This document shows positions 10,262 to 63,355 of a DNA stretch of 64,000 nucleotides, one piece after another. The position numbers and the translations under genes were made by a program. The stretch comes from Alphaproteobacteria bacterium (lineage in GTDB: Bacteria > Pseudomonadota > Alphaproteobacteria > RF32 > CAG-239). Under the pieces are notes generated by a model, which was not told the DNA's origin, searched no databases, and saw nothing but the letters and a program-made list of their open reading frames with translations. Location of the stretch: contig JBKEEF010000012.1 in the NCBI GenBank assembly GCA_047975765.1, forward strand, positions 84,824 through 148,823, read 5' to 3'. How positions within the stretch are numbered: the stretch's first letter is position 1; every line of letters begins with the position of its first letter.

Positions 10262-12439
10262 TTAGTTATTCTTACTCAATTCTTCAATCACTTCTCTTTT
10301 CAAACTTACGTTATCTGTTTTGCCTGTTGCAAATACAGGAATATGATCTTTGAAAAGAATTGTTCTTGGCAAATAGAGTTCAGACATACTATTTTTCTTG
10401 ATATATTCATGGATTTTAGATTGTGTAACATCTTTGTTATTTGTTACCAAAACAATCTGTTCACCCTTGCTTTCGTGAGGAATTGAAACAACACCATAGT
10501 TATATTCATCTCCACCTTCACCTTTGTAAGCACTGCGAACCAATTCATCAACAGCATTCAAAGAAACCATTTCGCCGCCAATTTTGGCAAAACGTTTGAT
10601 TCTGTCTTTGATGTAGAAGAAACCAATTTCATCCATTTCAACCACATCACCAGTGTTATACCAACCATTTTTAAGTGGAACTAAGACTCCTGGTTTGTCA
10701 GAAAGATAATACCCCAACATCACGTTTGGACCTTTAACATGGAGTTCACCACCTTTTTCAATTCCCTCAACTGGAACAATTTTATATTCCATTCCAGGAA
10801 GAAGTTTTCCAATTGAACCAAAATGGTTGAAAATTCTATTGTTTGCAGTAACGACAGGGGAACATTCTGTACTTCCATAAGCTTCCATAACGCGAATACC
10901 CAATCTTTCCATCCACATATCTCTAGTGTCGCTCTTAACAGCTTCTGCACCCGCAAACATGAAACGAATATTATGAAAATCCATTGGGTGAGCAATTCTT
11001 GCATAGCCACGGAAGAATGTATCCGTTCCAAACATAATTGTTGCACCAATTTCATAAACGATTTCTGCAACAACACGGTAGTGCAATGGAGAAGGATACA
11101 AGAATAATTTAGCCCCTTCAAAAAGTGGGAAAATTGTTCCAATTGTCAAACCAAAGCTATGGAACATCGGCAATGCATTAAACACCACATCTTGAATATT
11201 GATTGTTTCAATTGCTGAAACTTGTTTAATATTTGAAATGAGGTTCGCATGGCTCAAAACAACTGCTTTTGGTGTCCCTTCAGAACCAGATGTGAACAAG
11301 ATAACAGCTTTCTTATCGCCACCATCTCTGTGTGGAACTCTTTTGAGCTTATATCTAATCAATGCACCAAGTTTTTGTTTCAAACTAATTTCTTTAGCCA
11401 ATGATTCCAAGTAAACAACTTCGAATCCGTTTTCTTTCAATACTTTTACTTCTTCTTCAAGCTTAGCTTGTCTCACAAAATTGAGCGATGTAACAACCTT
11501 TTTCACAACAGCCGTTTTGCACATTGAAACTAAGTTTGTCGCACCCGTTGAGAAATTGAGCATAACAGGAACACGTTCATAAGCTGAAAGTCCAAAGAAA
11601 GTGCAAACAGTTGCAATTGCATTTGGCATTAAGACACCGACATTTTCAAAATGAGCTGTTCTTTTTTGAAAATATTTTCCCAAAACAAAAGACTTTATCA
11701 TAATGTCTTTATAAGAATTTGGTTCTCTTTTAATGTCCTCAACAAACTTAGGTCTTCCTGTGATAAATCCTTGTTTAGAGTGAATTTTTGAAGCTTTCAT
11801 CAATTGACCAAACAGAGAAATATTCGGATTATACATTGATTCGAAATGCATTTCTCTGAGAATGGTGTAAACCTCATTACTAATGTGGTCACGTTGACGA
11901 CGCAAATTATCTTTCAATTTGAACTTACGAGGAGCTCCAACTCTTACCATAACTCTCGGAAGCGGACGGTGAGGAATTTTTCCTTTTGTTTTTGAAAAAT
12001 AACTATATTGAAGACCACTAATCCAAATCGGAATCAAAGGTGCACCAGATTTATCAGCAACCAAACCAGGAGCTTCATAAATTTTCATCAAGCCACCATT
12101 TTCAGTGATTCTTCCTTCTGCAAAAATCATACAAAGGCGACCATTGTCAACTTTCGCGATAAGTTCTTTAATATCTGCTGGTTCAATTGGGTTAAACGGC
12201 ATAATGTCTGCAGTTTTCATAAAAAATCTAATCCACTTATTGCGGAAAAGGTGACCGTTTAATGCAAAAACAGGATTTCCCGGAAGAAAAGCAAAAAGAA
12301 TGAGTGGATCGAGATAGGAAACGTGATTAGAAACATAGACACCTTTATTAGGCAATTTATTTTCACTAAAATTTACAGTACATCTAATTTTGAATGTTCT
12401 AAACACAACTCTTAAACAAAATCTAACAAAGTTCCTCAA
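10262..12439 (-). CDS. aas: bifunctional 2-acylglycerophosphoethanolamine acyltransferase / acyl-ACP synthetase (Aas), standalone copy
   Basis: 725 aa. N-terminal PlsC-type acyltransferase HX4D (NHVSYLDPLIL) and C-terminal AMP-binding motif (ILFTSGSEGTPKAVVLSH). Length close to E. coli Aas (719 aa). Confidence 0.85.
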   Translation of the reverse strand: MRNFVRFCLRVVFRTFKIRCTVNFSENKLPNKGVYVSNHVSYLDPLILFAFLPGNPVFALNGHLFRNKWIRFFMKTADIMPFNPIEPADIKELIAKVDNGRLCMIFAEGRITENGGLMKIYEAPGLVADKSGAPLIPIWISGLQYSYFSKTKGKIPHRPLPRVMVRVGAPRKFKLKDNLRRQRDHISNEVYTILREMHFESMYNPNISLFGQLMKASKIHSKQGFITGRPKFVEDIKREPNSYKDIMIKSFVLGKYFQKRTAHFENVGVLMPNAIATVCTFFGLSAYERVPVMLNFSTGATNLVSMCKTAVVKKVVTSLNFVRQAKLEEEVKVLKENGFEVVYLESLAKEISLKQKLGALIRYKLKRVPHRDGGDKKAVILFTSGSEGTPKAVVLSHANLISNIKQVSAIETINIQDVVFNALPMFHSFGLTIGTIFPLFEGAKLFLYPSPLHYRVVAEIVYEIGATIMFGTDTFFRGYARIAHPMDFHNIRFMFAGAEAVKSDTRDMWMERLGIRVMEAYGSTECSPVVTANNRIFNHFGSIGKLLPGMEYKIVPVEGIEKGGELHVKGPNVMLGYYLSDKPGVLVPLKNGWYNTGDVVEMDEIGFFYIKDRIKRFAKIGGEMVSLNAVDELVRSAYKGEGGDEYNYGVVSIPHESKGEQIVLVTNNKDVTQSKIHEYIKKNSMSELYLPRTILFKDHIPVFATGKTDNVSLKREVIEELSKNN

Positions 12440-12723
12440 AATTCATATCTCCATAGTTGAATAATAGACGAAATTTAATACTTTTGATATGTTTTTGTAA
12501 AGGTATATTTTCGATTAGTTAACAGTTTGTTAAACTTTACCCTATGGGTATATAGACTATCCTATTGAATATATATAAAAAAACCTCTTTTATCCAGAGG
12601 CAAATTAAATTGATATTGAATCTTAAATTTAAATACACTAATAGTTTTCTGTAACATATTGTCATAAAATGTTATCAAAAAGGCGGTATGTTGCTCTTGG
12701 ATTAACTATAAAAGTGAAAACTA

Positions 12724-13959
12724 ATGAAAAAAAAGATACTAACCTTAACAGCACTCAGTGCTATTCTTGTTGCCTCAAATGCTCATGCATCTGGCTTTCA
12801 TCTTAAAGAACAATCAGTTTCAGGTTTAGGAACAGCATTTGCGGGTTCATCTTCAGGTGGTCAAGACATTTCTGCGTCTTATTTCAACCCTGCAGTATTA
12901 ACAAGATATAAAGGATCTCAAATTGTTTTCGGTGCAACTTATGTTGCCCCAACAGCAAAGCTTAAATATGCAAGATCAACAGCTGCACCAGCTCAAGTAG
13001 ATGGTCCATCAAGTGATGTGGTAAGCAATGCTGTTGTTCCAAATTTTTATGCTTCTAAACAACTAAATGACGACATTTTTCTTGGAATTTCTTTCAACGC
13101 ACCTTTTGGTTTGGTCACAAAATATGATGATAACTGGGCTGGTCGTGACCATGGCACATTGTCTGATTTAAAAACCTACACAATGACTCCAATGCTTGCT
13201 TATAAAATGGATGATAAAATGTCTGTGGGTGTTGGTGCTCAAATTCAACACGTTAAAGCAAGATTGAGAAATGGTGTTGTTGCAGGACAAGGACAAGCTG
13301 TATTAGAGGGTGATACAACTGATGCAGGATATGTTTTTGGTGCACAATATGAATGGCGAAAAGACACACGTTTTGGTGCCGGTTATAGAAGTCGTATTCA
13401 CCACAAACTCAAAGGTGACATTGACCTTACAAATGTTACACCTATGCCAGCAATGAATGGCTCATACCCAATCAATGCAGAATTAACAACACCTGCAGTT
13501 GCCAGCTTTGGTATCACACATGACCTCAATGAAAAAGTGTCTTTGATGGCTGAATTTCAAAGAACATATTGGAGTGTCTTTGATGAACTTCGCATTAAAG
13601 GTGTTCCTGGAGGCGACAGTGTAACTCCTGAAAAATGGAAAAATACAAATTTCTACTCTATCGGTGCTTCATATCAATTAAACGATGAGTGGAAGCTTCG
13701 TGGTGGTCTTGGTTTCGATAAATCTGCAGTTAAAAAAGAATATCGCACTCCAAGAATTCCTGATTCAAATCGTAACTGGTATTCACTTGGTGCTCAATAT
13801 AAACCAAATGAAAAGATGGCGATTGATATGGGTTATACTTTCATCAGAGCTGCTGACGGAGCTAAAATCAATTTAGCTAATAAGGTAGGCGGTTCTTTGC
13901 AAGCTGACTATAAATCTTACGTTCACATCATTGGTGTAGGCGTAACTTATAACTTCTAA
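12724..13959 (+). CDS. fadL: long-chain fatty acid outer-membrane transporter, FadL family
   Basis: 411 aa. Signal peptide. N-terminal SGFHLKEQSVSGLGTAFAGSSSG resembles the FadL hatch-domain N-terminus ([20 protein letters not shown] in E. coli). C-terminal YNF. Confidence 0.85.
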   Translation: MKKKILTLTALSAILVASNAHASGFHLKEQSVSGLGTAFAGSSSGGQDISASYFNPAVLTRYKGSQIVFGATYVAPTAKLKYARSTAAPAQVDGPSSDVVSNAVVPNFYASKQLNDDIFLGISFNAPFGLVTKYDDNWAGRDHGTLSDLKTYTMTPMLAYKMDDKMSVGVGAQIQHVKARLRNGVVAGQGQAVLEGDTTDAGYVFGAQYEWRKDTRFGAGYRSRIHHKLKGDIDLTNVTPMPAMNGSYPINAELTTPAVASFGITHDLNEKVSLMAEFQRTYWSVFDELRIKGVPGGDSVTPEKWKNTNFYSIGASYQLNDEWKLRGGLGFDKSAVKKEYRTPRIPDSNRNWYSLGAQYKPNEKMAIDMGYTFIRAADGAKINLANKVGGSLQADYKSYVHIIGVGVTYNF

Positions 13960-30448: not shown

Positions 30449-30524
30449 TTCATCCCTACCCTTTTTACAAACCTTAAGGGTTTTAATACATATTCAGAAA
30501 AAAGCAAGCTTCTTTTAGATATAT

Positions 30525-32876: not shown

Positions 32877-32948
32877 AAGAGAATATCCTTTGACTAATTT
32901 TTTAAATTTAATCCATTCTACTCTTTCTTTATTAAAAATCTCTGAAAT

Positions 32949-32983
32949 AAAAAAAGAGGAATAAAATTATTCCTCTTTTTTTA
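32949..32983. terminator. bidirectional terminator
   Basis: aaaaaGAGGAATaaaattATTCCTCttttttt. Confidence 0.65.
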
Positions 32984-32998
32984 TTGTTATTATATTAA

Positions 32999-34171: not shown

Positions 34172-34250
34172 ATTTTTGCCCTCCTTTCTTATATATAGAC
34201 ATAATAATCTAAATTTGTATAAGAGTAAACAAAAAATAAGCTAAAAATTC

Positions 34251-35363: not shown

Positions 35364-35412
35364 CTTTTTCCTTAAAAAAAAGACGACCCGACAAGGCCGC
35401 CTTAGTTCTTCA

Positions 35413-35988: not shown

Positions 35989-36078
35989 TTCAAAATCCTA
36001 TATAGTTCAATTAGAATGATTCATTATTATGCTTATTTATTTTAAGTCAACTATTTATCTACAAAATCCCCCAATTGA

Positions 36079-36396
36079 TTAGGAAATTTTTAGGCAAACA
36101 ATTCCTCCAACGATTAAAACAATTCCAAACCAACTCAAAAGTGTAGCTGTGTCATTAAAATAATATATTCCAAGAAGAAATGTTCCCACAGCTCCAACTC
36201 CTGCCCAAGCAGCATAAGCTGCTCCAATTGGAATTGTTCTTTGCGCCAAATATAATAAGAAACCACTAATTGTCATCCCAACTGCAGAGAAAACAACCCA
36301 TGCCACATTATGTTCAGGATTAACCTGTGCCATCTTAAATCCTGTTGGCCAAGAAACTTCGAAAAGTCCTGCTAAAATTAAATATACCCAAGCCAT
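36079..36396 (-). CDS. SMR-family small multidrug/quaternary ammonium efflux protein (SugE/EmrE-like)
   Basis: 105 aa. Four TMs. MAWVYLILAGLFEVSW with the conserved membrane Glu. Confidence 0.8.
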   Translation of the reverse strand: MAWVYLILAGLFEVSWPTGFKMAQVNPEHNVAWVVFSAVGMTISGFLLYLAQRTIPIGAAYAAWAGVGAVGTFLLGIYYFNDTATLLSWFGIVLIVGGIVCLKIS

Positions 36397-36534
36397 TCAT
36401 TTTCCTTTCTTTATTAAATTCACTTAAAAATAAAAGGAAAACGAAAAAAATTCAAGAATTTTCCAATATTTTAATGAATTTATAAAATACAAACACTATA
36501 TTCGAGGTAAGATAAATTAACTCGGAGAATAAAA

Positions 36535-43022: not shown

Positions 43023-46000
43023 ATAATGCCTCTACATAAGTCGCCGGTGCAACAAATTTTCCTTTTGCAATGACTTTAACATTATATGTTGCTTCACTCA
43101 TTTCGCTTGAAGCTGTCACATAGATTAAAGCTCTGTCTTCTCTCTCTTCTTTATAGTCAAGTGAAGCATTGGTTTCAATAGAGCCACTTTCAATTTCAAA
43201 GCATCCTGGCATCAAATCAACAATTGCCACATCGTTAATATAATCTCTGCCACCTGTTGCTTTGAATCTGATGCGAACAGTTAACTTGTCACCAACATTT
43301 GCTTTAGAAACAGCTGAGCCTTTCTCATTGATATATTCTTTGGTCACTTCAATGAAATTACTTGCTGCTTTTTGAGCACTTTCTTTAGCAAAACCTTGTT
43401 CTTCAATCACATAGAAGAAAGGATTTGGAGAAATTGCTTCAAATGTTTTGTCTTCACTAGAAAGCTCTGTTCTTGCAAAAGTTTTATATGTTGAAGATTT
43501 TCCAACAAAATCAATTTTTTTATCTGCTTTTTTATCAAACTTATAATTGCTCAATGCTAATAGTGAGAAAGCTGCTGAATTTGTATTATATCTTTGTTCT
43601 TTAAGCGGTTTCAACAAAGTTTTCACAGCTGTTGCATCAATTTCAGCCAAATCTTCAGGGAAATATTTAGACATCAAATCAATATACATTGCATTTGTTG
43701 TATCTCCGTTGTCTTTGAACTTATATGCTCCGATTAAGCCTCGTGCTTTTGGTTCATTTTTCAACATTTGATAACTTGCTGCCATGTATGTTGCACTGAT
43801 TTTAGATTTCCAGTCATCTTTAGAACTCACTGCAAATTTGAGCGCATCTTTCCAATTATCACCTTTTGGTTTGTTCAACTCTTCATAATATTTCTCAATA
43901 TTAATCAAATAGTTTGTTGTAACTTCACCATTTTTAGTGAGAAGATAAATTGCATAAGCAACTTTTGTATCTCCCAAACCATTAGGATCTCTTCCTGCAA
44001 CTGATTTTGCATAAGTGATTGACTTATTCAAAAGTGAATTCGGAACATTAAAGCCTTTGTTTTTAGCAAACAACATAAAGTCTAGTGCATAAAGAGAAGC
44101 ATATTCATCAACTGAAGACCAACTTCCGCTCCAAGCTGAGAAACCACCATTAGACTTTTGACGTTCCATCAATTTTGAGATGGTATCATCATACAAAGCA
44201 TAGACATCAATCCCCTTAACCAATTCTGGATATTTGAAGAAAATGTCCATAGTTGGATAAATTTTACTGATAGTTTGCTCTGTGCAAGCATGAGGGAACT
44301 TATCCAAGAATGCAATAAGACCTTCGCTCAACACAAGTGGAGAAGTTGAAGCAATTGCTTCTTGATTGCGATATTCCTCAAACATTGGTGTCACAAAGTT
44401 TTTCAATTTCAATTTTGAAGGCTCATATCCCATCATAAGTTTTGTGATATATGGACTAGATGGTCTGACTCCAATATGATATGGCATTTCAAAGTTCTTG
44501 GACGCATCACTCACTGCCTCAACCTTGTATGTAAGTGTTGATGAACCAAGCTGTTCTAGTGCCTTGATTTGGTATTTCACACTTTTTTCACCATTTTCAT
44601 CAATTCTAAGGGTCTGAACTTTTTCACCAGCAACTTCAAGCCCACCTTCAATATCCAAAGTTACTTTAACTTCATAACCTTTACCTGAATTTTCAACCAA
44701 GTTAGCAATACTCACGCCCACTTCAAATTCATCTTTAGGTGAAACATTAAATGGACCACTTGGAACCAAAGCAAAATCTCCACGAATATAAGTCGATTTC
44801 TGAGCACTTCCCATAGCTTCTTCGGAAACAGCAACCGCCATCACACGAATTTGACCATTGAAGATTGCTGGAACCTTATATTTATATTCCTGAACATCTG
44901 TGGATGTATCGATAACTCCACTCCAGAAAGCCACAACTTCATTCTGCTTTCTAGCGAATGGATTTTGCTGAGCCAAGAGTTCATCTGCTGAATATTCATC
45001 ATCACCACCCGTTGCCTTATAAAGTTGTAGTAACTTCATATCTGGCATAATCAAATCCATAATTTGAGAACTTGAAACACGTAAAGCCTTTTTCTTGATG
45101 AACTCTGACAAAGGATCTGGTGTTTGATATTTTGCCACCTGCAAAATGCCTTCATTCACACCATAGACAATGATTTTTCCTGCCTTTGCAGTCTTATATT
45201 TAACAACCAATTCATCTCCTGGTTTGACAACTTCAGGAACATCAAGCTCAATTTTGATGTCTCTTTTGTCCTTATTAATTTCAAAAGGAACAACGGAATA
45301 TGCCAAAGGAGACATAAAGATTTCTCTTGAATTTGCATCTCTGACAAAAGCTACATTGATATAAGCATTTCCTTCAACAGTATAAGGTAAGCGAATTTCT
45401 TCTGTTGTTGTTTTGCTTGATGTCTTAAACCATTTATAGCTATATACTTCATCTCTTTCAATTGTAATCAAGCCATAACCTTCGTATGGAGCAACAATTT
45501 TCATCGAAATCATATCGCCATTATTATATTGTTTTTTATCTAAAGTAACTTTCAAGTTTGCGTCTTTATCAAGCATAAAGTCTGTGTTTCCACCACCTGC
45601 AATATCATAGGAGACTTTTGAAAGCACAACACCTTCCTTATCTGCAATTTCAACATAAAACTTACCAGATGTTTTTGTGTCAATCACATAGTTATTGCCT
45701 GTTGCAGGAATAGAAATTTTGCTTGTATTCAATACATCTTCTTTTTCAATTTGCATATATTTATAAGTTCCGTTTGGCATTTCGACCAAGCTTGGAACAT
45801 ATTTAATTTGAACCAATTTCAAAGATAAATCTTCTTTGGCAATTTTATTCAAATTGTTATCAATCGCAATAAAATTGATGCTTCTTTCAGCATTTTTAGA
45901 AATATTATATAAAGCTCCATCTCCCTTATATCCAACAATATAAGTTGCTGGAGAAACAAGAGCCGATTCAGATGTATAAACGCTACGTCCACCTTCAAGT

Positions 46001-48642
46001 TCAAAGCCTTCAACATTTAGTGTAAAATTATATGTTCCACGAGAAAACTTATCCAAATCCACTTTGAATTCTGTTTTTCCTTCTTTATCTGTTGTTTGCT
46101 CAGAAAGAACCTCATTATAATATCTTGTTGCACCAGAAATTTTTGGATCTTTGAAATTATATCCTTTAAATTCTTGGAAAGAAAAACTTGCTGGATACAA
46201 ATTGAAGTTTGCCTTTACATTATGGTCAATAGAAGGGTTTCCATAAAGGTTTTGTAACAATACATTACCTTTAATTTCTTTTTCAATGTACCAACCTTTT
46301 TTCTTAACACCTTCAAGTGCTAATTTGATTTTCATTGTATCTGGCTGAAATTCTTCAACTCTGAAACTCACATCTGTAAGATAGTTTTTGTAGCTTCCAC
46401 TCACATCATGAACGGTCAAGCGATAATCGCCAATTTTTGCTGATGCAGGAATTTTATATTCATAATCAGCAAAGCCAAACTCGTCTGTGATAATTTTTTT
46501 GGAAGCAACCTCATCTCCTTGAGAGTTCATCACACTCACAGATAGAGGGAATTTCTTTGGTGCTAAAAGATCAACATTTCGAAGCATAACACCAAATGAA
46601 GCTTTTTCATTAGGTCTGTAAATTCCACGATCTGAAAAACCATAGGCTTTCATTTCTTTTTTATTGGTACTGTCATAAACACCACCGACATCAAACGTAG
46701 ATAAATCAAGTTTTCTATCACCTCTATTCACAGGCATAAAAGAAATATCACTTCCCTTAGTCACAACATAAACTGTTGGAGATTTCTCTGCTCTAAAATC
46801 ATCAAAATTTGGAATTTTTGCCATTCCTGCAGAATTTGTATAAGCAGTTAAAATAGCCACACCATTTTTGCCAAGCACTTCAACTTTTGCATCAGCAACA
46901 GGGCGTCCTTCAGAAAAACTTGAAATGAAGACATCATGAGATTTGTTCAAATTATCTTTGACCATAATTGCTAAATCTGTAATCACAATCAGTCTTCTAT
47001 CTTCTGATGTATTATAAGAATTTTGATAATTTCCTCTCACTTTAACAATGAATGTTCCACGTTTAGACTTGAAATATTCATTCAAGTTAACTGAAGAATA
47101 ATCTTGTTTTGCAGGATGTTGCGTATTGATTGTGAGTTTTTTTCTAAAGATTTCAGAAATATTTTCTTCTGTAAAATTATAATTTCTGAAATATGGATTG
47201 GTAAAATCACCTGATGTTTGACTAATAAGGTGATTCAAATCATTGCTTTCAATTCTTGCTACTTCAACATTAATTGTGTCAATTCCTTGTGAAGAAAGCG
47301 TCAAAGTCTTATCACCATTCAATGAAAGGATTGAACCTTGAAAAGCAATGCTCGCTTCCATTGGATAGTTTGAAGAACTTGTCATTCTTATCTGATCATC
47401 TGAGAAAATAAATCCATCAACAGAGCCTAACCCTTTTTTGATATATGTGATGACACAAGCATTTCTTTTCGGAATATCATATTTAAACATATGAACCTTA
47501 CCAGCTTCTGTTGCCAAAGGAACAACATCAAGAGATGTTACACCAGCCACACTAGATGGTAGACCAGCTTTCTTGACCTTAGATTCAATTTTACTGCAAT
47601 AGTCATTATATTGGTAGAAATTTACATATTGTGAAAATTCTTTTGGATCAACAGATGTTGAAAAACTAACAAATAAAACTTGCTCTGGCTCATTATTTTT
47701 TAGTTCGTTTCTAATAATTTGACTTGAAACCGAATTGAGCTTGAAGAAAGTTGATGAACTTGGAATTTTCACTTTTACTTTCACACTGTCTTTGATTTTT
47801 TCTTGATTATATGCATTTTTAACACCAGAAAGCATAATTTCTGCAAAATCTTCGTCTTTTTTAATTTTTACAGGAGAAGATAAAACATGAAGTTTGCTAT
47901 TATTGTTTTCTAGTTTGTAAGTGAAGTCATATTTATCTCCACTATGTGTTTTGATTGAGATACTATCTTTGACAGATTCAACATCGACAGGATAGTTGAA
48001 ACTGAATGTTGCAACAACTTGTTTGATTTTAACATCACGAGGATCTTCATAAAATTCTGAACTTTGTGATCTTGCTACGAAGTTTGGAGAACTGAAAGAA
48101 AATTCTTTAGCACCTTTTTTAACTTCAACATTTGGACTGAAAATATCATCGCTCAATGAGACAGAATATTTTGTGTTAGGAATCCAATCTTTCTCAGGAG
48201 TAAAAGCCAAATTCCTATCGTCAATCCAACGCCATTCACCACGAATATCAGGAAAGATTGTCGCCCCTTGTGATACAACATTATAAACAAGTTCTGATTT
48301 TGCAACGGAATATGGAAAAGAAATTTTTACAAAGTTTGGAGTGACTTTTGAAGATGAGATATATGAATTATCAGGTTCTCTTACATAACCATAATCAATG
48401 ACTGTTTTTTCAGCTGTTTCTGAAACCATATAGGCTTTTGGAGAAAGGAGATAATAAACAATTCCTGTGATCGCTACAACCAAAAAGATAAAAATCGACA
48501 AGATTTTCTTTTTGTGGTTCAAGAAAATTCCCTTAAAATCGGATTTAAAGAAATGAACTAAATTAACTTTAGAAAATAACATACTAAAAAATGTTTTAAT
48601 CTTATTTGTAGAAACAGGTTTACTCATCAGAATCTTCTCCAT
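42967..48642 (-). CDS. alpha-2-macroglobulin family protein (YfhM-like), membrane-anchored
   Basis: 1891 aa. N-terminal TM anchor. Intact thioester motif CTEQ (PHACTEQTISKIYP). Conserved genomic pairing with pbpC. Confidence 0.9.
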   Translation of the reverse strand: MEKILMSKPVSTNKIKTFFSMLFSKVNLVHFFKSDFKGIFLNHKKKILSIFIFLVVAITGIVYYLLSPKAYMVSETAEKTVIDYGYVREPDNSYISSSKVTPNFVKISFPYSVAKSELVYNVVSQGATIFPDIRGEWRWIDDRNLAFTPEKDWIPNTKYSVSLSDDIFSPNVEVKKGAKEFSFSSPNFVARSQSSEFYEDPRDVKIKQVVATFSFNYPVDVESVKDSISIKTHSGDKYDFTYKLENNNSKLHVLSSPVKIKKDEDFAEIMLSGVKNAYNQEKIKDSVKVKVKIPSSSTFFKLNSVSSQIIRNELKNNEPEQVLFVSFSTSVDPKEFSQYVNFYQYNDYCSKIESKVKKAGLPSSVAGVTSLDVVPLATEAGKVHMFKYDIPKRNACVITYIKKGLGSVDGFIFSDDQIRMTSSSNYPMEASIAFQGSILSLNGDKTLTLSSQGIDTINVEVARIESNDLNHLISQTSGDFTNPYFRNYNFTEENISEIFRKKLTINTQHPAKQDYSSVNLNEYFKSKRGTFIVKVRGNYQNSYNTSEDRRLIVITDLAIMVKDNLNKSHDVFISSFSEGRPVADAKVEVLGKNGVAILTAYTNSAGMAKIPNFDDFRAEKSPTVYVVTKGSDISFMPVNRGDRKLDLSTFDVGGVYDSTNKKEMKAYGFSDRGIYRPNEKASFGVMLRNVDLLAPKKFPLSVSVMNSQGDEVASKKIITDEFGFADYEYKIPASAKIGDYRLTVHDVSGSYKNYLTDVSFRVEEFQPDTMKIKLALEGVKKKGWYIEKEIKGNVLLQNLYGNPSIDHNVKANFNLYPASFSFQEFKGYNFKDPKISGATRYYNEVLSEQTTDKEGKTEFKVDLDKFSRGTYNFTLNVEGFELEGGRSVYTSESALVSPATYIVGYKGDGALYNISKNAERSINFIAIDNNLNKIAKEDLSLKLVQIKYVPSLVEMPNGTYKYMQIEKEDVLNTSKISIPATGNNYVIDTKTSGKFYVEIADKEGVVLSKVSYDIAGGGNTDFMLDKDANLKVTLDKKQYNNGDMISMKIVAPYEGYGLITIERDEVYSYKWFKTSSKTTTEEIRLPYTVEGNAYINVAFVRDANSREIFMSPLAYSVVPFEINKDKRDIKIELDVPEVVKPGDELVVKYKTAKAGKIIVYGVNEGILQVAKYQTPDPLSEFIKKKALRVSSSQIMDLIMPDMKLLQLYKATGGDDEYSADELLAQQNPFARKQNEVVAFWSGVIDTSTDVQEYKYKVPAIFNGQIRVMAVAVSEEAMGSAQKSTYIRGDFALVPSGPFNVSPKDEFEVGVSIANLVENSGKGYEVKVTLDIEGGLEVAGEKVQTLRIDENGEKSVKYQIKALEQLGSSTLTYKVEAVSDASKNFEMPYHIGVRPSSPYITKLMMGYEPSKLKLKNFVTPMFEEYRNQEAIASTSPLVLSEGLIAFLDKFPHACTEQTISKIYPTMDIFFKYPELVKGIDVYALYDDTISKLMERQKSNGGFSAWSGSWSSVDEYASLYALDFMLFAKNKGFNVPNSLLNKSITYAKSVAGRDPNGLGDTKVAYAIYLLTKNGEVTTNYLINIEKYYEELNKPKGDNWKDALKFAVSSKDDWKSKISATYMAASYQMLKNEPKARGLIGAYKFKDNGDTTNAMYIDLMSKYFPEDLAEIDATAVKTLLKPLKEQRYNTNSAAFSLLALSNYKFDKKADKKIDFVGKSSTYKTFARTELSSEDKTFEAISPNPFFYVIEEQGFAKESAQKAASNFIEVTKEYINEKGSAVSKANVGDKLTVRIRFKATGGRDYINDVAIVDLMPGCFEIESGSIETNASLDYKEEREDRALIYVTASSEMSEATYNVKVIAKGKFVAPATYVEALYDTDVRANTKASTFTVQE

Positions 48643-58341: not shown

Positions 58342-58944
58342 TTATTTCTTTGGAGCCACTTTTTTTGCAGCTGTCTTCTTTGGGGCTGCTTTTTTCTTTG
58401 TGACTTTTTTTGCTTTTGGCTCAGTGTAAGTTTTAGAAATTGTCAAAGCATTTTCCAAATCTTTTTCATTACAAAGACCAACAGCAACTGGATTTTTCGG
58501 ACGAAGATAATTCATATCTCTATATGTACCATTGCGAATTGTTTCGATTGTTGGTTTTGTTGTTCCAATCAATTTGCAAATTTGAGAGTCAATGATTTGT
58601 GGATAGTTCTTAACAACCCACAAAATTGCTGCAGGTTTGTCTGCTCTTTGTGAAGGAGAAAGAACTTTTTTAGATTTTGCATTTTTCGCTTTAACATTTC
58701 TTTCCAAAAGGGAAGCTTCCAAATTTGTTCTTGGGTCTGCTTCACATCTTTTGATTTCTTCCAAGCTCAATTGACCGTTCATCACTGGGCTAATACCAAC
58801 GATATTATAAGCAACGTCGCCATCAGCAATCGCTTGAATTTCAAGTTCATGAAGTTCGCAAAAAACGGCAATTTGTCTAAATGTCAAAGTTGTGTTTTCA
58901 ACCAACCAAACCGCTGTTGCTTTTGGCATCAATGGTGCTGTCAT
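58342..58944 (-). CDS. DUF1013-like conserved protein with Lys/Ala-rich histone-H1-like C-terminal tail
   Basis: 200 aa. N-terminal MPKATAVWLVENTTLTFRQIAVFCELHELEIQAIADG resembles the alphaproteobacterial DUF1013 family. C-terminal KKVTKKKAAPKKTAAKKVAPKK. Confidence 0.55.
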   Translation of the reverse strand: MTAPLMPKATAVWLVENTTLTFRQIAVFCELHELEIQAIADGDVAYNIVGISPVMNGQLSLEEIKRCEADPRTNLEASLLERNVKAKNAKSKKVLSPSQRADKPAAILWVVKNYPQIIDSQICKLIGTTKPTIETIRNGTYRDMNYLRPKNPVAVGLCNEKDLENALTISKTYTEPKAKKVTKKKAAPKKTAAKKVAPKK

Positions 58945-59077: not shown

Positions 59078-59281
59078 TTAATAATGTGGAGGTGGTGTTT
59101 CCTCACTTTGAGGCTTCAATTCATTATCTGCAAGAACACTAGCAATATATTTCCCTTGCTTTACTAAAACATCAATTAGTTTTCCTTGTTTAATAATCAC
59201 CTGATTGAGATCTTCAATTGTTTTTTCACAATTCGCAAGAGACATCTCAATATTCATCAACCTTTCATCATTTTCAGTCAT
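59078..59281 (-). CDS. slyX: SlyX-family protein
   Basis: 67 aa coiled-coil ending in ETPPPHY, the SlyX C-terminal signature. Confidence 0.75.
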   Translation of the reverse strand: MTENDERLMNIEMSLANCEKTIEDLNQVIIKQGKLIDVLVKQGKYIASVLADNELKPQSEETPPPHY

Positions 59282-59387
59282 TTATTTATCCTCAAAATTT
59301 AACACCTGTATATAATTTACAAAACAATAGTTGACAGGTCAATAATTATTTTGTATTACTATAACATAAATTATGTGGAGAAAAAAG

Positions 59388-59861
59388 ATGACTGATTTTA
59401 GACAATATGGAATTTTGGAAGAAAAAGGCAGAGAATATGAAAATATTGCCTATGTTATGGCACTTATTTATAACATCTGCGAAAAGAGAATCTCCAAAAT
59501 TTTGACGAACCACAATCTTTCAACAGCACAATTTAATGTTCTTCTTATGGTCAATCTATATGCCGAAAAAGAAGGCATTAGTCAAGTGGAAATCAGCAAA
59601 CACTTAATTGTCACCCCTGGAGGAATTACGCGTTTGATTGACAAGCTGGCAAAAGAAAAAATGCTCGTTGTCAAACAAAACAAAAACAACAGAAGAGAAA
59701 ATTTGGTCAACATCACCCCTAAAGGTGTTGAACTCATTGACTTAGTCTGGCCTGAATATAACAAGGAAGTTGAAAGTCTCATCAACCTTGTTCCACAAGA
59801 AAAACAAAATGATCTTGCTGAGATTTTAGCAAACTGGTTCACAAAACTTCAAGAGGTATAA
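59388..59861 (+). CDS. MarR-family transcriptional regulator
   Basis: About 157 aa. Winged-helix region LSTAQFNVLLMV...ISKHLIVTPGGITRLIDKLAKEKMLV. 1 nt gap before the LplT-Aas gene. Confidence 0.75.
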   Translation: MTDFRQYGILEEKGREYENIAYVMALIYNICEKRISKILTNHNLSTAQFNVLLMVNLYAEKEGISQVEISKHLIVTPGGITRLIDKLAKEKMLVVKQNKNNRRENLVNITPKGVELIDLVWPEYNKEVESLINLVPQEKQNDLAEILANWFTKLQEV

Positions 59862-59862
59862 A

Positions 59863-62800
59863 ATGGGTAAAATTTTATCAATTCTAAAACAAAGAGCCTT
59901 CATTTCCGTTTTCATTACGCAATTTTTAGGCGCTTTCAACGACAACTTATTCCGTGCTGCAATGTCTGGTTTTGTGACATATAAAATCACAACAATCGCA
60001 GAAGGTGATAAACAAATCATTGTCACAATGGCAGTTGGTTTATTCATGCTCCCTTTCTTCCTTTTCTCAGCAATTGCAGGAGAAATGGCTGATAAATTTC
60101 GCAAAGATGTTATCTTCAAAATCACAAAATTTTTAGAAGTTGTCATTGCTGCTTGTTCCATTACAGGTTTTTATTTCCATAACCCATATATTTTGCTTAT
60201 TTCTTTGACTCTTATGGGAACACAGGCTGCTTTTTTTGGCCCTGCAAAATATAGTATTCTTCCAGATATTTTGAAGAAAGATGAACTCATTGCAGGTAAT
60301 GGACTTTTTGAAGCTGGTACTTATTTAGCAATTCTCCAAGGAATTATTATCGGTGGCTTGATTATGTCTGGTGAAAGCTCTGGACTCCTAGCAACTGCAA
60401 TTTGGATTATGTCTGTTGCACTTATAGGGTTCATTGCCAGTCTTTTCATTCCAAAAGTTGAAGCTGTTGATCCAACTTCCAAAGTGCAACTCAATTTTTT
60501 GAAATCCACTTGGGAAAATATGAAGTTTGCAACAATTAAGAGAGATATTTTTCTTTGTATCTTAGGAATTTCATGGTTTTGGTTAATTGGCGCATCCCTC
60601 ATTTCTCAAATTCCGAGCTATGCTGACCAAGTTTTGAAAGCTGATGGCAATGTATATACTTGGTTGCTCACTTTGTTTTCATGTGGTGTTGGTGTGGGGG
60701 CGATTGTTTGCCAATCTTTACTCAAAGGTGAAATTACACCTAAATATGTTCCAATTAGTGCGGTTTTGATGACACTTTTCTTAGCTGACTTGGCACTTGC
60801 TAGTCTTCACATCAATCCAGACCACGCACAACAAACACTCATAGAATTCATTAGCTCCGTTAAAGGCATTAGAATTTCCATTGATTTATTTATGTTAGCG
60901 GCTTGTGGTGGCGTTTATATGGTTCCACTGAATGCATTACTCCAAACCCTTTCAAGTTCAAAAATTCGTTCACGAGTGATTGCTACAAACAACATCATCA
61001 ACTCTTTGTTTATGGTTGTTGGTTCCATTATGTGTGTTTTATTGCTCACATTGAAAGTTGGAATTGCGGGAATTTTTGTAGCAATGGCCGTTGCAAATGC
61101 TTTTGTTGCACTCTACATTTGTGGGCTTCTTCCTGCCCCAATTGCTAAAGCTGCTGCTAAGAAAATTGTTAATATTTTCTACAAAGTTGAAGTTAAAGGC
61201 ATTGAAAATTTGAAGAAAATTCGCGGCAGAACAGTTGTCATTTGTAACCACACTTCTTTCTTGGATGCTGTTTTGCTTTGGGTTCACCTCCCTGACAATG
61301 TATTCTTTGCAATTAACACCTATGTTGCTAAAGTTTGGTGGATTAAACCCCTTATCAACTTGTGCAAATATGTTACGCTTGATCCAACTAATCCAATGAG
61401 TGTAAAACATATTATTGAAGAGGTTAAGAAAGGCAAAAAAGTTGTTATTTTCCCTGAAGGTAGAATCACAACAACGGGAAGTCTGATGAAGGTTTATCCT
61501 GGACCTGCTGTGATTGCAGACAAAACTGGTGCAAATCTTTTGCCAATTTGTATTGAAGGTTCACAATATTCTATTTTTGCAAAGTTTTCTGATAAGTTCA
61601 AAAAACGTCCAAAGTGCAAAATCATAATGAATATTTTACCTCCTCAAAAACTTAATGTTGATGAAAAACTCAGTGGTAAAAAACGCAGAATTGAAGCGGC
61701 TAAAAAGCTCTATGATATGATGTGTGATATGAAATTTAAGACTTTTGACTACAACAAAACACTTTTCACAAGCTTGGTTGATGCATACAATTTGGTTGGT
61801 AAAGATAAACCTATTGTTGAAGATTCAAACAGAAAACCAATCACTTTCAAAAAACTTATTCAAACTATTTTTGTTCTTGGTGATGCTTTCAAAAAGCAAA
61901 CATCAAGAGGTGAATATGTTGGGGTTTTATTGCCAAACTCCGTAGCTGCTGTTTCGACTTTGTTTGGACTTCAGGTATATGGTCGTGTTCCGGCAATGCT
62001 CAACTTCTCCGCTGGTGTGAAAAGTTTAATTACTTGTTGCAAAACAGCAAATGTCAAAACGGTTTACACTTCAAAAATTTTTATCAAAAAAGCTAAACTT
62101 TCTGAAACAGTTGAACAGATTGAGGCTGAAGGAATTAAAGTTATAAATCTTGAAGACTTAGCAAGAGATATCTCACTTCGTGATAAAATTTCTGGAGCTA
62201 TCAAGGCACTTAATCCACTCAAGCATATGTCCAAGGTTGACCCTAGTGAACCAGCAGCTGTTTTATTCACTTCAGGATCTGAAGGGACGCCAAAAGGTGT
62301 TGTTCTGAGTCATATTAACTTGAATGCAAACAGATGCCAACTTGTTGCGGTGATGCCAATTGGGGTTTTAGATAGTGTCTTTAATGCAATGCCAATGTTC
62401 CACTCTTTTGGTTTAACTGCTGGTGTCTTGGTTCCGCTCCTCAGTGGTTTGAAGGTGTTCCTCTACCCAACTCCTCTACACTACCGCATTGTCCCTGAGC
62501 TTGTTTATGATACAGACTCAACAATCATGTTTGGTACGGATACTTTCTTGACAGGATATGCAAAAGTGGCTCACCCATACGACTTTCACTCTATTCGTTT
62601 TGCTGTTGCTGGTGCAGAAAAAGTGAAAGATGAAACTTTCAAAACTTGGTATGACACTTTTGGTGTGAGAATCTTTGAAGGTTATGGTGCGACTGAAACA
62701 TCTCCTGTGATTTCTGTGAATACACCAATGAATTTCAGAAGAGGAACTGTAGGAAGACTTCTGCCAAGCATTACTTCTAAACTTGAAAATGTTCCCGGTG

Positions 62801-63258
62801 TTGAAACTGGTAAAAGACTTTCTGTTAAAGGTCCAAATGTAATGTTAGGATATCTTCTTGCAGACAAACCAGGTATTTTACAACCAACAAAAGATGTTTG
62901 GTATGACACAGGTGATATTGTTGATATCAATGACGGCTTTATCTCTATTGTTGGACGTGCAAAACGTTTTGCTAAAGTTGGTGGAGAAATGGTCAGTCTT
63001 TCTGCTGTGGAAACAGAAATCAGCAAAATTTGGAAAGACTTCGCACACGCTGTTATCTCTGTTCCTGATGAAAAGAAAGGCGAACAACTGATTTTGTTTA
63101 CAACAAATAAAGATGCTAAAAGACAAGATATTGTTGCCTTTTTCAAAGAACACGGTGTGAGTGAAATTTCAATTCCTAAGACGATTAATGTTTTGGATAG
63201 TATTCCACTCATGGCAACAGGAAAAACTGACTACGTCAAGCTTTCTGAAATGGTATAA
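59863..63258 (+). CDS. tri-domain fusion: MFS lysophospholipid transporter (LplT) plus PlsC-type acyltransferase plus acyl-ACP synthetase (Aas)
   Basis: 1131 aa. N-terminal roughly 420 aa with 12 TMs (MFS). HX4D acyltransferase motif VICNHTSFLDAV with FPEGR. AMP-binding motif LFTSGSEGTPKGVVLSH. Paralogous to the standalone aas at 10262..12439. Confidence 0.85.
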   Translation: MGKILSILKQRAFISVFITQFLGAFNDNLFRAAMSGFVTYKITTIAEGDKQIIVTMAVGLFMLPFFLFSAIAGEMADKFRKDVIFKITKFLEVVIAACSITGFYFHNPYILLISLTLMGTQAAFFGPAKYSILPDILKKDELIAGNGLFEAGTYLAILQGIIIGGLIMSGESSGLLATAIWIMSVALIGFIASLFIPKVEAVDPTSKVQLNFLKSTWENMKFATIKRDIFLCILGISWFWLIGASLISQIPSYADQVLKADGNVYTWLLTLFSCGVGVGAIVCQSLLKGEITPKYVPISAVLMTLFLADLALASLHINPDHAQQTLIEFISSVKGIRISIDLFMLAACGGVYMVPLNALLQTLSSSKIRSRVIATNNIINSLFMVVGSIMCVLLLTLKVGIAGIFVAMAVANAFVALYICGLLPAPIAKAAAKKIVNIFYKVEVKGIENLKKIRGRTVVICNHTSFLDAVLLWVHLPDNVFFAINTYVAKVWWIKPLINLCKYVTLDPTNPMSVKHIIEEVKKGKKVVIFPEGRITTTGSLMKVYPGPAVIADKTGANLLPICIEGSQYSIFAKFSDKFKKRPKCKIIMNILPPQKLNVDEKLSGKKRRIEAAKKLYDMMCDMKFKTFDYNKTLFTSLVDAYNLVGKDKPIVEDSNRKPITFKKLIQTIFVLGDAFKKQTSRGEYVGVLLPNSVAAVSTLFGLQVYGRVPAMLNFSAGVKSLITCCKTANVKTVYTSKIFIKKAKLSETVEQIEAEGIKVINLEDLARDISLRDKISGAIKALNPLKHMSKVDPSEPAAVLFTSGSEGTPKGVVLSHINLNANRCQLVAVMPIGVLDSVFNAMPMFHSFGLTAGVLVPLLSGLKVFLYPTPLHYRIVPELVYDTDSTIMFGTDTFLTGYAKVAHPYDFHSIRFAVAGAEKVKDETFKTWYDTFGVRIFEGYGATETSPVISVNTPMNFRRGTVGRLLPSITSKLENVPGVETGKRLSVKGPNVMLGYLLADKPGILQPTKDVWYDTGDIVDINDGFISIVGRAKRFAKVGGEMVSLSAVETEISKIWKDFAHAVISVPDEKKGEQLILFTTNKDAKRQDIVAFFKEHGVSEISIPKTINVLDSIPLMATGKTDYVKLSEMV

Positions 63259-63264
63259 GTTGCT

Positions 63265-63297
63265 AAAAAAAGAGCCTCAAACTGGGGCTCTTTTTTT
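63265..63297. terminator. bidirectional terminator
   Basis: aaaaaAGAGCCTCaaactGGGGCTCTttttttt. Confidence 0.7.
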
Positions 63298-63355
63298 ATT
63301 TTATATTTAAAGATATTCATCAAAATCTATCTTCTTGGGAATCGAACGACTTTTT

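What the first reader, a model, noticed from the sequence alone, without database searches (positions are those of the whole stretch)
59373..63258. MarR regulator immediately upstream of a fused LplT-acyltransferase-acyl-ACP-synthetase gene, plus a second unfused aas next to fadL
In E. coli lplT and aas are separate adjacent genes for lysophospholipid flipping and re-acylation. Here a single 1131-aa ORF carries a 12-TM MFS domain, the HX4D acyltransferase and the AMP-binding synthetase. It is preceded, with only a 1-nt gap, by a MarR-family regulator (fatty-acid/lipid-responsive MarR regulators are known). A second, standalone 725-aa Aas lies at 10262..12439, divergent from a FadL-type outer-membrane fatty-acid channel. 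Two Aas paralogs plus FadL suggest strong investment in scavenging or repair of exogenous or host lipids. That fits a host-associated AT-rich bacterium.
Basis: partly seen in the sequence, partly recalled or inferred. Interest (0 to 1): 0.5.

Follow-up and report, generated by a model that had tools for sequence, protein, structure and literature searches.

The report
Repressor-controlled membrane-lipid repair operon
A gut-type alphaproteobacterium carries an already-catalogued fused lysophospholipid flippase/re-acylation enzyme; the modestly new point is that a small, uncharacterized MarR-family regulator with a conserved palindromic operator travels with this gene across bacterial phyla.

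Summary
A MarR gene (true start probably 59388, not 59373) lies 1 nt upstream of a 1131-aa ORF with a 12-helix LplT-like MFS domain, an HX4D acyltransferase and an acyl-ACP synthetase. A second, unfused Aas (45% identical) lies divergent from a FadL-family gene.

The fusion is not new. It passes the curated NCBIfam equivalog NF005291, has more than 5,000 full-length homologs, is mentioned in the literature, and was assembled identically twice.

The useful result concerns the MarR. It belongs to a compact subfamily (79 clusters) that is directly adjacent to the fusion in 12 of 17 lineages from gut Alphaproteobacteria and Elusimicrobiota. Each unit starts with a conserved promoter whose -35/-10 region is dyad-symmetric. 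The window's 38-bp palindrome (59318-59355) recurs in a relative with two compensatory arm substitutions and decays where MarR has been lost.

The best reading is an autorepressed, ligand-inducible marR-lplT/aas operon for lysophospholipid re-acylation. The fadL/aas2 pair is the conserved fatty-acid uptake and activation route. The ligand, DNA binding and enzyme activities are all untested.

This is an ordinary architecture with a modestly novel regulatory pairing.

The parts
59318..59355 (.). 38-bp palindrome (18-nt arms, 2-nt spacer; core TTGAC-AG-GTCAA), the candidate MarR operator, spanning the -35 box and reaching the -10 box
   Evidence: 83% complementary; P=0.003 in shuffles of this intergenic region; the only such repeat in the window centred on a promoter -35 box; L033 17/18 with two compensatory changes; MarR-less L001 13/18, L004 7/18
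59331..59359 (+). Putative sigma-70 promoter: -35 TTGACA (59331-59336), 17-nt spacer GGTCAATAATTATTTTG, -10 TATTAC (59354-59359)
   Evidence: Read. The spacer matches the cross-phylum consensus AATAAACAATTTATTTG at 11/17 (P about 0.005 for random 17-mers of the window). The same architecture heads every MarR-containing unit aligned (L013 and L015 have no TTGAC[AGT] -35)
59388..59861 (+). MarR-family regulator, 157 aa (the ORF opens at 59373 but the likely start is 59388, with GGAG at 59377-59380)
59863..61158 (+). Fusion ORF, residues 1-432: LplT-like MFS domain, 12 TM helices (6+6)
   Evidence: (best MFS match is LplT NF008397, E 1.5e-35); 29% identity to E. coli LplT
61183..61752 (+). Fusion ORF, residues about 441-630: PlsC-type lysophospholipid acyltransferase domain (HX4D at H463-D468, FPEGR at 530)
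61762..63258 (+). Fusion ORF, residues about 634-1131 plus stop: adenylate-forming acyl-ACP synthetase domain
63264..63298 (+). Intrinsic terminator (16-bp stem, T-run) closing the two-gene operon
10262..12439 (-). Standalone Aas paralog (acyltransferase plus acyl-ACP synthetase; start codon uncertain)
12440..12723 (.). Divergent aas2/fadL control region with two small palindromes (TTAACAGTTTGTTAA about 12519-12533; TAACAT-N11-ATGTTA about 12653-12675). It has no copy of the MarR core motif
12724..13959 (+). FadL/OMPP1/TodX-family outer-membrane channel
   Evidence: the divergent pairing with aas2 is conserved in L028, L029 and L030

Best explanation
The locus is a two-gene operon, marR then lplT-aas, bounded by one promoter and one terminator. 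Inferred: a MarR dimer binds the dyad-symmetric DNA that covers the -35/-10 region of its own promoter and represses both genes. Inferred, ligand unknown: an envelope- or lipid-derived small molecule, most plausibly a free fatty acid, an acyl-thioester, a lysophospholipid or another hydrophobic anion, releases it. By homology: the induced 1131-aa protein flips lysophospholipids from the outer to the inner leaflet of the cytoplasmic membrane through its N-terminal LplT-like MFS domain. Its tethered cytoplasmic Aas module then re-acylates them, first activating a free fatty acid to acyl-ACP with ATP and then transferring it through the HX4D site. The separate fadL/aas2 pair is the lineage's conserved route for importing and activating exogenous fatty acids and is not under this MarR.
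For: Operon structure: 1-nt gap, AGAGG 6 nt before the fusion ATG, no internal terminator, strong terminator at 63264-63298. Enzyme identity: NF005291 equivalog 1523.7 bits against a cutoff of 1349, aligned over residues 5-1131; all catalytic motifs intact; AF2 model with a 6+6 MFS bundle and a linker helix leading into cytoplasmic domains. Regulator: Pfam MarR above threshold; confident MarR fold, pLDDT 90.4, TM 0.7-0.83 to MarR, HucR, PecS and HpaR. Linkage: MarR orthologs (40-68% identity, only 79 clusters in 5.8 billion proteins) are directly adjacent to a fusion gene in 12 of 17 lineages and within 3 kb in a 13th. These span Alphaproteobacteria and Elusimicrobiota, always with a gap of 15 nt or less or an overlap, and once in reversed order. 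Cis-element: a palindrome that is rare by chance; conserved -35/spacer/-10 architecture at the head of every MarR-containing unit aligned, whether MarR or a CPBP gene comes first (L013 and L015 lack a recognisable TTGAC[AGT] -35); two compensatory arm substitutions between the window and L033; decay of the dyad in MarR-less L001 and L004. Ligand rather than redox sensing: 30 of 63 subfamily members have no cysteine and six aromatic positions are conserved.
Against: Nothing here is experimental: DNA binding, repression, inducer and enzyme activities are all inferred. The closest relative (84% identity, same slyX synteny) has no MarR at this locus, and no MarR more than 68% identical was found anywhere. 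Half of the six nearest fusion loci inspected lack it, so the regulator is dispensable. The most symmetric element differs between clades: a long palindrome centred on the -35 box in the Alphaproteobacteria, and a 9-3-9 dyad in the spacer in the Elusimicrobiota. The exact operator is therefore unresolved, and the window matches the spacer consensus at only 11/17. Four MarR orthologs are not next to a fusion (L009, L013, L023, L035). No similarity to a MarR with a known lipid ligand reaches significance at family level (FabT 25.7 bits against a cutoff of 200).
Confidence: 0.6

Rival explanations
1. The MarR autoregulates only itself, or mainly controls other genes (for example the CPBP protease found upstream in relatives, or slyX here). 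Its position next to lplT-aas would then be a passenger effect of cassette inheritance rather than functional control.
For: MarR occurs with CPBP but without a fusion in L009. It sits next to an unrelated 1407-aa ATPase in E. posterum and next to a CdsA-like gene in Omnitrophota. The fusion does without MarR in L001, L004 and L005.
Against: Direct adjacency in 12 of 17 lineages across phyla, with gaps of 15 nt or less or overlaps and no intervening terminator, means the fusion is necessarily co-transcribed from the MarR promoter wherever they are adjacent. There is no promoter-like site between the genes in the window.
Confidence: 0.12
2. The palindrome is not an operator. It would be two back-to-back -35 boxes serving the divergent slyX and marR promoters.
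For: The minus-strand half reads TTGACC-17-TAAATT and points at slyX. slyX starts at 59281 and is divergent from marR.
Against: L033 and L006 carry the same palindrome (17/18 and 11/18) although their upstream gene is co-directional (an MS channel), so no divergent promoter is needed there. The compensatory changes lie in the outer arms, outside both -35 boxes.
Confidence: 0.1
3. The physiological role is nutrient scavenging: import of exogenous host or dietary lysophospholipids and fatty acids to build membrane. Repair of the cell's own damaged membrane would then be secondary.
For: Relatives come from gut metagenomes. The genome has two Aas copies and a FadL-family channel. The genome is AT-rich at 34.4% GC.
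Against: plsX and fabH are present 4 kb from aas2, so de novo synthesis is probably intact. In E. coli the LplT/Aas system is described as envelope repair and phospholipase defence (PMC11416262). The biochemistry is identical in both readings, so sequence cannot separate them.
Confidence: 0.3
4. The fused ORF is an assembly or frameshift artefact.
For: None found.
Against: The full-length curated profile match has no break. The top 120 of more than 5,446 homologs are all about 1,077-1,196 aa with the same three domains. Residues at the junction are invariant (L422, P424, G446). An independent second assembly is identical. The domain order is the opposite of the E. coli gene order, so read-through cannot create it.
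Confidence: 0.01

Closest known systems
E. coli LplT (YgeD) / Aas lysophospholipid transport and re-acylation system
   Same: Same three activities: MFS flippase, HX4D 2-acyl-GPE acyltransferase and acyl-ACP synthetase. The Aas module is 44% identical and the MFS domain 29% identical. The two E. coli proteins form a functional complex (PMC11416262).
   Different: E. coli has two proteins encoded in the order aas-lplT. Here there is one polypeptide in the order LplT-Aas. An engineered Aas fusion to the C terminus of E. coli LplT disrupted expression (PMC11416262), so the natural fusions are not trivially equivalent. No dedicated transcription factor for the E. coli operon turned up in the papers searched.
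NCBIfam NF005291 (PRK06814) 'acyl-[ACP]--phospholipid O-acyltransferase', the roughly 1140-aa fused family
   Same: The window protein is a member: 1523.7 bits against a cutoff of 1349, aligned end to end.
   Different: Nothing distinguishes the enzyme itself. Family members are functionally uncharacterized according to PMC11416262.
Classical MarR-type autorepressed operons (E. coli MarR-marRAB, EmrR-emrAB, S. aureus MepR-mepA), from my own knowledge of the family
   Same: A small wHTH dimer is encoded at the head of the operon it represses. A palindromic operator overlaps the -35/-10 region, and the cargo includes an MFS-type membrane protein.
   Different: Sequence identity is 25% or less. 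There is a conserved N-terminal extension (DFRQYGI..GR.YENIAYVMAL). The cargo is a lipid-repair enzyme rather than a drug-efflux pump, and the ligand is unknown.
FabT, the MarR-family fatty-acid synthesis repressor of streptococci that senses acyl-ACP (role recalled from my own knowledge)
   Same: It is a MarR-family protein tied to membrane-lipid homeostasis, so it is a conceptual precedent for a lipid-sensing MarR.
   Different: It scores 25.7 bits against a cutoff of 200 for the FabT equivalog, and PDB 6jbx matches at only E 3e-5. This MarR is not a member of that family.
Standalone acyl-ACP synthetases used for exogenous fatty-acid incorporation (Chlamydia AasC, Neisseria AasN, Vibrio AasS), from my own knowledge; review PMC6167442 appeared but was not read
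   Same: aas2 next to fadL fits this role: outer-membrane fatty-acid entry followed by ATP-dependent ligation to ACP.
   Different: aas2 keeps the N-terminal acyltransferase domain, like E. coli Aas. It is only 38% identical to E. coli Aas and falls below the NF005959 cutoff.

Membership tests
Fused LplT-Aas (NCBIfam NF005291 / PRK06814) | Full-length match to the curated equivalog HMM above its cutoff | tested here: met
   1523.7 bits against 1349; residues 5-1131 align to profile positions 5-1130 of 1140
Fused LplT-Aas (NCBIfam NF005291 / PRK06814) | N-terminal 12-TM MFS domain, then an HX4D acyltransferase, then an adenylate-forming domain, in one polypeptide | tested here: met
   Pfam domains, motifs, AF2 model with 12 TM helices plus a linker helix
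LplT/Aas lysophospholipid remodelling system (function) | Lysophospholipid flipping and ATP/ACP-dependent re-acylation activity | not testable with these tools
   Needs spheroplast lyso-PE uptake/acylation assays or complementation
Standalone LplT (NCBIfam NF008397) | Equivalog score above cutoff for the MFS domain | tested here: not met
   123.1 bits against a cutoff of 297. It is still the best-scoring MFS model, so the domain is LplT-like but divergent (29% identity to E. coli LplT)
MarR family transcription regulators | Pfam MarR/MarR_2 domain above the gathering score | tested here: met
   PF01047 30.9 bits against 24.6; PF12802 27.1 against 27
MarR family transcription regulators | Winged helix-turn-helix fold with N- and C-terminal dimerization helices | tested here: met
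   AF2 pLDDT 90.4; Foldseek TM 0.7-0.83 to MarR, HucR, PecS, MftR and HpaR
MarR family transcription regulators | Palindromic operator overlapping the promoter of its own operon | tested here: met
   In silico only: palindrome 59318-59355 over the -35 box, conserved and co-varying in relatives
MarR family transcription regulators | Sequence-specific DNA binding relieved by a ligand | not testable with these tools
   Needs EMSA or footprinting and a ligand screen
FabT (fatty-acid synthesis MarR regulator) | Equivalog HMM NF050133 above cutoff | tested here: not met
   25.7 bits against 200
OhrR/MgrA-type redox-sensing MarR | Conserved sensing cysteine | tested here: not met
   30 of 63 subfamily members have no Cys; the only recurrent Cys column is present in 19 of 63
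E. coli-type Aas (NCBIfam NF005959) for aas2 | Equivalog score above cutoff | tested here: not met
   614.7 bits against 886. Same two-domain architecture, aligned 4-720 to profile 5-714 of 719; 38% identity to E. coli Aas
FadL long-chain fatty-acid channel | OMPP1/FadL/TodX beta-barrel family membership | tested here: met
   PF03349 330 bits, full length
FadL long-chain fatty-acid channel | FadL equivalog NF007988 above cutoff (substrate-level assignment) | tested here: not met
   169.7 bits against 585. It is a family member, but its substrate is not established

The most novel reading that the evidence does not exclude
This MarR subfamily is the first dedicated transcriptional sensor of lysophospholipid or free-fatty-acid stress in the bacterial envelope. 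It would bind a lysophospholipid or fatty-acyl ligand in a pocket lined by its conserved aromatic residues and so switch on lysophospholipid recycling. It would travel with its target, and sometimes a CPBP membrane protease, as a mobile cross-phylum cassette whose repressor is repeatedly lost to give constitutive expression. A 2026 E. coli study states that the receptor for the lysophospholipid signal is unknown (PMC13170283), so a cognate sensor would be a useful handle.
Probability: 0.2. Interest if true: 0.55.

Novelty: new member of a known kind. Interest (0 to 1): 0.3.

Why it matters
Lysophospholipid recycling by LplT/Aas protects Gram-negative envelopes from phospholipase attack and has recently been tied to outer-membrane homeostasis signalling, but how the system is regulated is largely unknown. 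A small MarR subfamily genetically locked to the fused LplT-Aas gene, with a recognisable operator, gives a directly testable candidate regulator and a route to finding its inducer. The natural MarR-plus and MarR-minus sister loci (window against L001; L006 and L033 against L004) are ready-made comparisons. The fused enzymes themselves remain biochemically uncharacterized, and this compact operon would be a convenient one to express. None of this changes current concepts: the architecture and the regulatory logic are both of familiar kinds.

Tried and rejected
1. Assembly or frameshift artefact: rejected.
2. Recent duplication of aas: rejected. The copies are 45% identical, and aas2, the fusion Aas module and E. 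coli Aas are three roughly equidistant lineages.
3. A shared MarR regulon covering aas2/fadL: the core motif TTGACNNGTCAA occurs exactly once in the window, at the marR promoter, and not in 12440-12723. The only other promoter-consensus-like hits (5120+, 34912-) lack a -10 box, and the hit at 34912 lies within the span of the minus-strand ORF 34251-35363.
4. A standalone LplT partner for aas2: the other MFS gene in the window (29255-30448) is sugar-efflux type (NF002921) and is unrelated to the fusion MFS domain. The MFS near aas2 in L028 is not LplT either.
5. A CPBP homolog in the window: none.
6. The exact TTGACNNGTCAA match inside the L002 marR coding region arises from the codons ATT GAC CCG TCA. 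I treated it as coincidental.
7. Closest characterized MarR by sequence (PDB profile search) and by fold: only generic family-level matches, so no ligand could be inferred.
8. Literature search for a MarR regulator of lplT/aas: none found. The apparent hit was the author name 'Marrakchi'.
9. Fold search with the full fusion model returned only adenylate-forming enzymes. No solved full-length analogue exists.
10. The first anchoring of the L002 promoter on the wrong TTGAC gave 6/17. The correct upstream TTGACG gives 13/17.


Full report
OBSERVATION. A 162-aa MarR-family ORF (59373-59861) is followed after one nucleotide by an 1131-aa ORF (59863-63258). A 725-aa ORF on the minus strand (10262-12439) lies divergent from a 411-aa ORF (12724-13959).

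Pfam confirms the domain content. The long ORF has MFS_1 at residues 16-315, Acyltransferase at 441-564 and AMP-binding at 647-998. The 725-aa ORF has Acyltransferase and AMP-binding. The 411-aa ORF matches the OMPP1/FadL/TodX family at 330 bits.

The catalytic signatures are intact in both Aas copies: HX4D, (F/I)(P/A)EGR, TSGSEGTPK, YGxTE, TGD and the C-terminal GKTD lysine. Hydropathy gives about 12 hydrophobic segments in residues 1-431. An AlphaFold2 model built on 43 homologs (mean pLDDT 82.9) shows a 6+6 helix MFS bundle (residues 11-421) with a central loop. A short linker helix (425-439) then leads into the acyltransferase and adenylation domains. An MFS protein with 12 helices ends in the cytoplasm, which is where acyl-ACP chemistry must happen, so the topology is coherent.

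Two small corrections apply.
- The MarR very probably starts at ATG 59388, not 59373. GGAG sits 7 nt upstream of 59388, every ortholog begins M-x-DFR at that position, and the NCBI protein is 157 aa. ATG 59373 would lie about at the transcription start of the promoter described below.
- The aas2 start is uncertain: TTG at 12439 gives 725 aa, while NCBI aa.

THE FUSION IS REAL BUT KNOWN. The 1131-aa protein matches the curated NCBIfam equivalog NF005291 (PRK06814, 'acyl-[ACP]--phospholipid O-acyltransferase') end to end, at 1523.7 bits against a cutoff of 1349. A database search returned more than 5,446 homologs. The best 120 are all about 1,077-1,196 aa with the same three domains. The identical protein is already deposited for an alphaproteobacterial MAG, and it was assembled independently from another sequencing run with the same neighbours. 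Residues at the MFS/acyltransferase junction are invariant across 43 homologs.

A 2024 paper on the E. coli system notes that in some bacteria the two genes are fused into one ORF and that these proteins remain uncharacterized (PMC11416262). The E. coli operon order is aas then lplT, the opposite of the LplT-Aas domain order. Neither a read-through nor an assembly error of an E. coli-like operon could therefore produce this ORF. The artefact hypothesis is rejected, and so is the idea that the fusion itself is unusual.

THE TWO AAS COPIES. The copies are 45% identical over 694 residues. In an alignment with E. coli Aas the three are about equidistant: E. coli against the fusion module 44%, E. 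coli against aas2 38%, and aas2 against the fusion module 45%.

The standalone copy is the conserved one in this lineage. More than 120 database clusters are at least 75% identical to it. Its divergent pairing with the FadL-family gene is kept in relatives at 90% and 76% identity. It sits about 4 kb from plsX and fabH.

The fusion falls to about 65% identity in related gut Alphaproteobacteria, then to 57-59% in Elusimicrobiota and a Campylobacter MAG. Its chromosomal position also differs among relatives:
- after slyX in the window and L001;
- after a lysozyme/MS-channel block in L004, L006 and L033;
- near recG in L005.

This suggests the cassette moves. That is an inference, and several MAG taxon labels in these hits are probably binning errors. 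No other LplT-like MFS exists in the window.

THE MarR AND ITS LINKAGE. The regulator passes Pfam MarR but falls far below every curated equivalog cutoff, including FabT (25.7 against 200) and MarR itself. Its AlphaFold2 model is confident (pLDDT 90.4) and has a canonical MarR fold. TM scores are 0.7-0.83 to E. coli MarR, HucR, PecS, MftR and HpaR, at 25% identity or less. A profile search of solved structures finds nothing better than E 1e-12.

A profile search of 5.8 billion proteins finds only 79 clusters at E ≤ 1e-15. They come from gut alphaproteobacterial MAGs, Elusimicrobiota/Endomicrobia and Omnitrophota. The subfamily shares a conserved N-terminal motif (DFRQYGI..GR.YENIAYVMAL) and a QNxxNRREN wing.

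I inspected gene neighbourhoods for 17 distinct MarR lineages.
- In 12 the fusion gene is directly adjacent. Eleven have the order MarR then fusion, with a gap of 15 nt or less or an overlap, including two more cases of exactly 1 nt. One has the reverse order.
- In one more the fusion is 3 kb downstream.
- Four lack it nearby: L009, L013, L023 and L035.

In the Omnitrophota case (L035) the neighbour is a CdsA-family phospholipid-synthesis gene. In five lineages from both phyla an orthologous CPBP/Rce1-like membrane protease gene immediately precedes the MarR. The window has no CPBP gene.

Conversely, of the six nearest fusion homologs examined from the fusion side, three lack MarR. One of these is the closest relative (84% identity, same slyX and acetyltransferase synteny). 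Each MarR-plus locus has a MarR-minus sister in the Aas tree. The simplest history is therefore an ancestral marR-fusion unit with repeated loss of the repressor.

THE CIS-ELEMENT. The 106-nt region between slyX and marR holds a promoter: TTGACA (59331-59336), a 17-nt spacer, then TATTAC (59354-59359). A 38-bp palindrome spans 59318-59355, with 18-nt arms pairing at 15/18 and the core TTGAC-AG-GTCAA on the -35 box.

Palindromes of this quality occur at 10 places in the window against 0.55 expected. Seven of the other nine lie just after an ORF end and look like intrinsic terminators, one lies inside the first ORF (422-458) and one is an AT-only repeat (36400-36441). In shuffles of this intergenic region the probability of one arising is 0.003.

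When anchored on the -35 box, the heads of the MarR-containing units aligned share the same architecture, whether MarR or CPBP comes first. Two MarR loci, L013 and L015, have no TTGAC[AGT] -35 and fall outside this pattern. The architecture is TTGACA, a spacer close to AATAAACAATTTATTTG, then TATACT. The spacer is itself dyad-symmetric (ACAAATAAA-N3-TTTATTTGT) in Elusimicrobiota. Sigma-70 spacers are not normally conserved in sequence, so this points to a protein-binding site.

The window matches the spacer consensus at 11/17 (P about 0.005). MarR-less L001 and L004 score 8/17 and 6/17, which is at or near the background level of random window 17-mers (mean 5.3; P(≥8) = 0.13).

The strongest single piece of evidence comes from L033, an alphaproteobacterial relative whose MarR is 63% identical. 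It carries the same long palindrome at 17/18. It differs from the window at arm positions 6 and 7 by fully compensatory double changes (A:T to C:G and A:T to T:A). The palindrome decays to 13/18 and 7/18 in the MarR-less loci.

The element includes the -35 box and lies upstream of the transcript, so the symmetry is selected at the DNA level, as expected for a dimeric repressor. The alternative that the core is just two back-to-back -35 boxes for slyX and marR fails. L033 and L006 have a co-directional upstream gene, and the compensatory changes lie outside the hexamers.

The exact operator is not resolved. The most symmetric element sits over the -35 box in the alphaproteobacterial loci and within the spacer in the Elusimicrobiota.

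MECHANISM. Shown by sequence: a promoter, a dyad element, marR, a translationally coupled fusion gene and a strong terminator (63264-63298) form one compact unit.

Inferred from family knowledge: the MarR dimer occludes the promoter and is released by a small molecule. Thirty of 63 subfamily members have no cysteine, and six aromatic positions are conserved. This argues against OhrR-type oxidation sensing and for a hydrophobic ligand. Which ligand is unknown. Given the cargo, the obvious candidates are fatty acids, acyl-thioesters and lysophospholipids.

Inferred from homology to E. coli LplT/Aas: the product flips lysophospholipids inward and re-acylates them using acyl-ACP that it makes from free fatty acid and ATP. 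The fadL/aas2 pair most likely provides uptake and activation of exogenous fatty acids. It shows no copy of the MarR motif but has its own small conserved palindromes. Sequence cannot decide whether the inducible system serves self-repair or scavenging of gut lipids.

VERDICT. The headline feature, the fusion, is already known and curated.

The new information is a compact, uncharacterized MarR subfamily genetically locked to the fused LplT-Aas gene across phyla, with a conserved, co-varying operator-like element and repeated repressor loss. I found no description of such a regulator in the literature searched. This is a new member of familiar kinds (a MarR autorepressor and an LplT-Aas fusion) and is of moderate-to-low general interest. 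It does offer a clean, testable handle on how lysophospholipid recycling is regulated.

Noticed in passing
L002 4859-5521, L009 2489-3154, L011 5291-5989, L023 16-606, L025 393-1043: An orthologous CPBP/Rce1-like (PF02517) membrane protease gene (41-53% identity between phyla) sits immediately upstream of the MarR in five lineages, and the shared promoter element then precedes CPBP instead of MarR. In L009 the CPBP-MarR pair occurs without any fusion gene. The window has no CPBP homolog. What links an intramembrane protease to this regulator is unexplained.
   Followed up: partly
L001 5890-6000 (GCA_028706255.1), compared with window 59282-59387: The closest relative (fusion 84% identical, same slyX/GNAT synteny) has no marR. 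The fusion is driven directly by a promoter that keeps TTGACAGGTCAA and a 13/18 palindrome but has lost the spacer dyad. No MarR more than 68% identical to the window's was found in the protein database, which suggests a real deletion in that lineage. L004 is a second MarR-less locus syntenic with the MarR-plus loci L006 and L033.
   Followed up: partly
L034 1575-5477: In a MAG labelled Syntrophobacterales the gene order is reversed (fusion, then MarR after a 15-nt gap). The promoter-like element TTGACA-TATAAACTGTTAATATG-TGTAAT precedes the fusion.
   Followed up: partly
L035 5001-6714; L013 6001-11009: Distant MarR orthologs sit next to other cargo. In Omnitrophota the neighbours are an 84-aa ORF plus a CdsA-family (CTP_transf_1) gene. 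In Elusimicrobium posterum the neighbour is a 1407-aa ORF that I read, without running a domain search, as a BadF/BcrA-type ATPase / CoA-dehydratase-activase-like protein, and the fusion is elsewhere on the chromosome.
   Followed up: no
window 59314-59342 (minus strand) and slyX 59078-59281: The minus-strand half of the palindrome reads TTGACC-17-TAAATT and points at the divergent slyX gene, so MarR binding could also affect slyX in this genome and in L001.
   Followed up: no
window 12519-12533 and 12653-12675: The aas2/fadL divergent intergenic region has two small palindromes (TTAACAGTTTGTTAA; TAACAT-N11-ATGTTA) that are conserved in L030. At the position of the first, the more distant L028 has a different palindrome (TCAAAATTTTGA). 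These may be operators for a different, unidentified regulator.
   Followed up: partly
window 40677-48642 (minus strand): A bacterial alpha-2-macroglobulin (1891 aa; MG2, bMG3, bait-region and bMG10 domains) is followed by a PBP1C-type bifunctional penicillin-binding protein (781 aa). To my knowledge this is the known A2M-PbpC pairing.
   Followed up: no
Elusimicrobiota loci L010, L011, L012, L014, L024, L026, immediately upstream of the -35 box: A second, near-perfect 18-bp palindrome TAGTTTCTAAAGAAACTA abuts the -35 box in the Elusimicrobiota units. The corresponding window sequence (AATTTACAAAACAATA) keeps part of it but is not itself palindromic. This could be a second operator or a site for another factor.
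   Followed up: no
window 58342-58944 (minus strand): A TrcR-family (PF06242) cell-cycle regulator gene lies two genes upstream of marR. Together with the MAG label, it is consistent with an alphaproteobacterial origin for the window.
   Followed up: no
window 29255-37698 compared with L004, L006 and L033: The Fe-ADH / lysozyme-like / MS-channel block that flanks the (MarR-)fusion cassette in L004, L006 and L033 is present in the window, but there it has no cassette beside it. The cassette therefore occupies different chromosomal sites in related genomes.
   Followed up: partly
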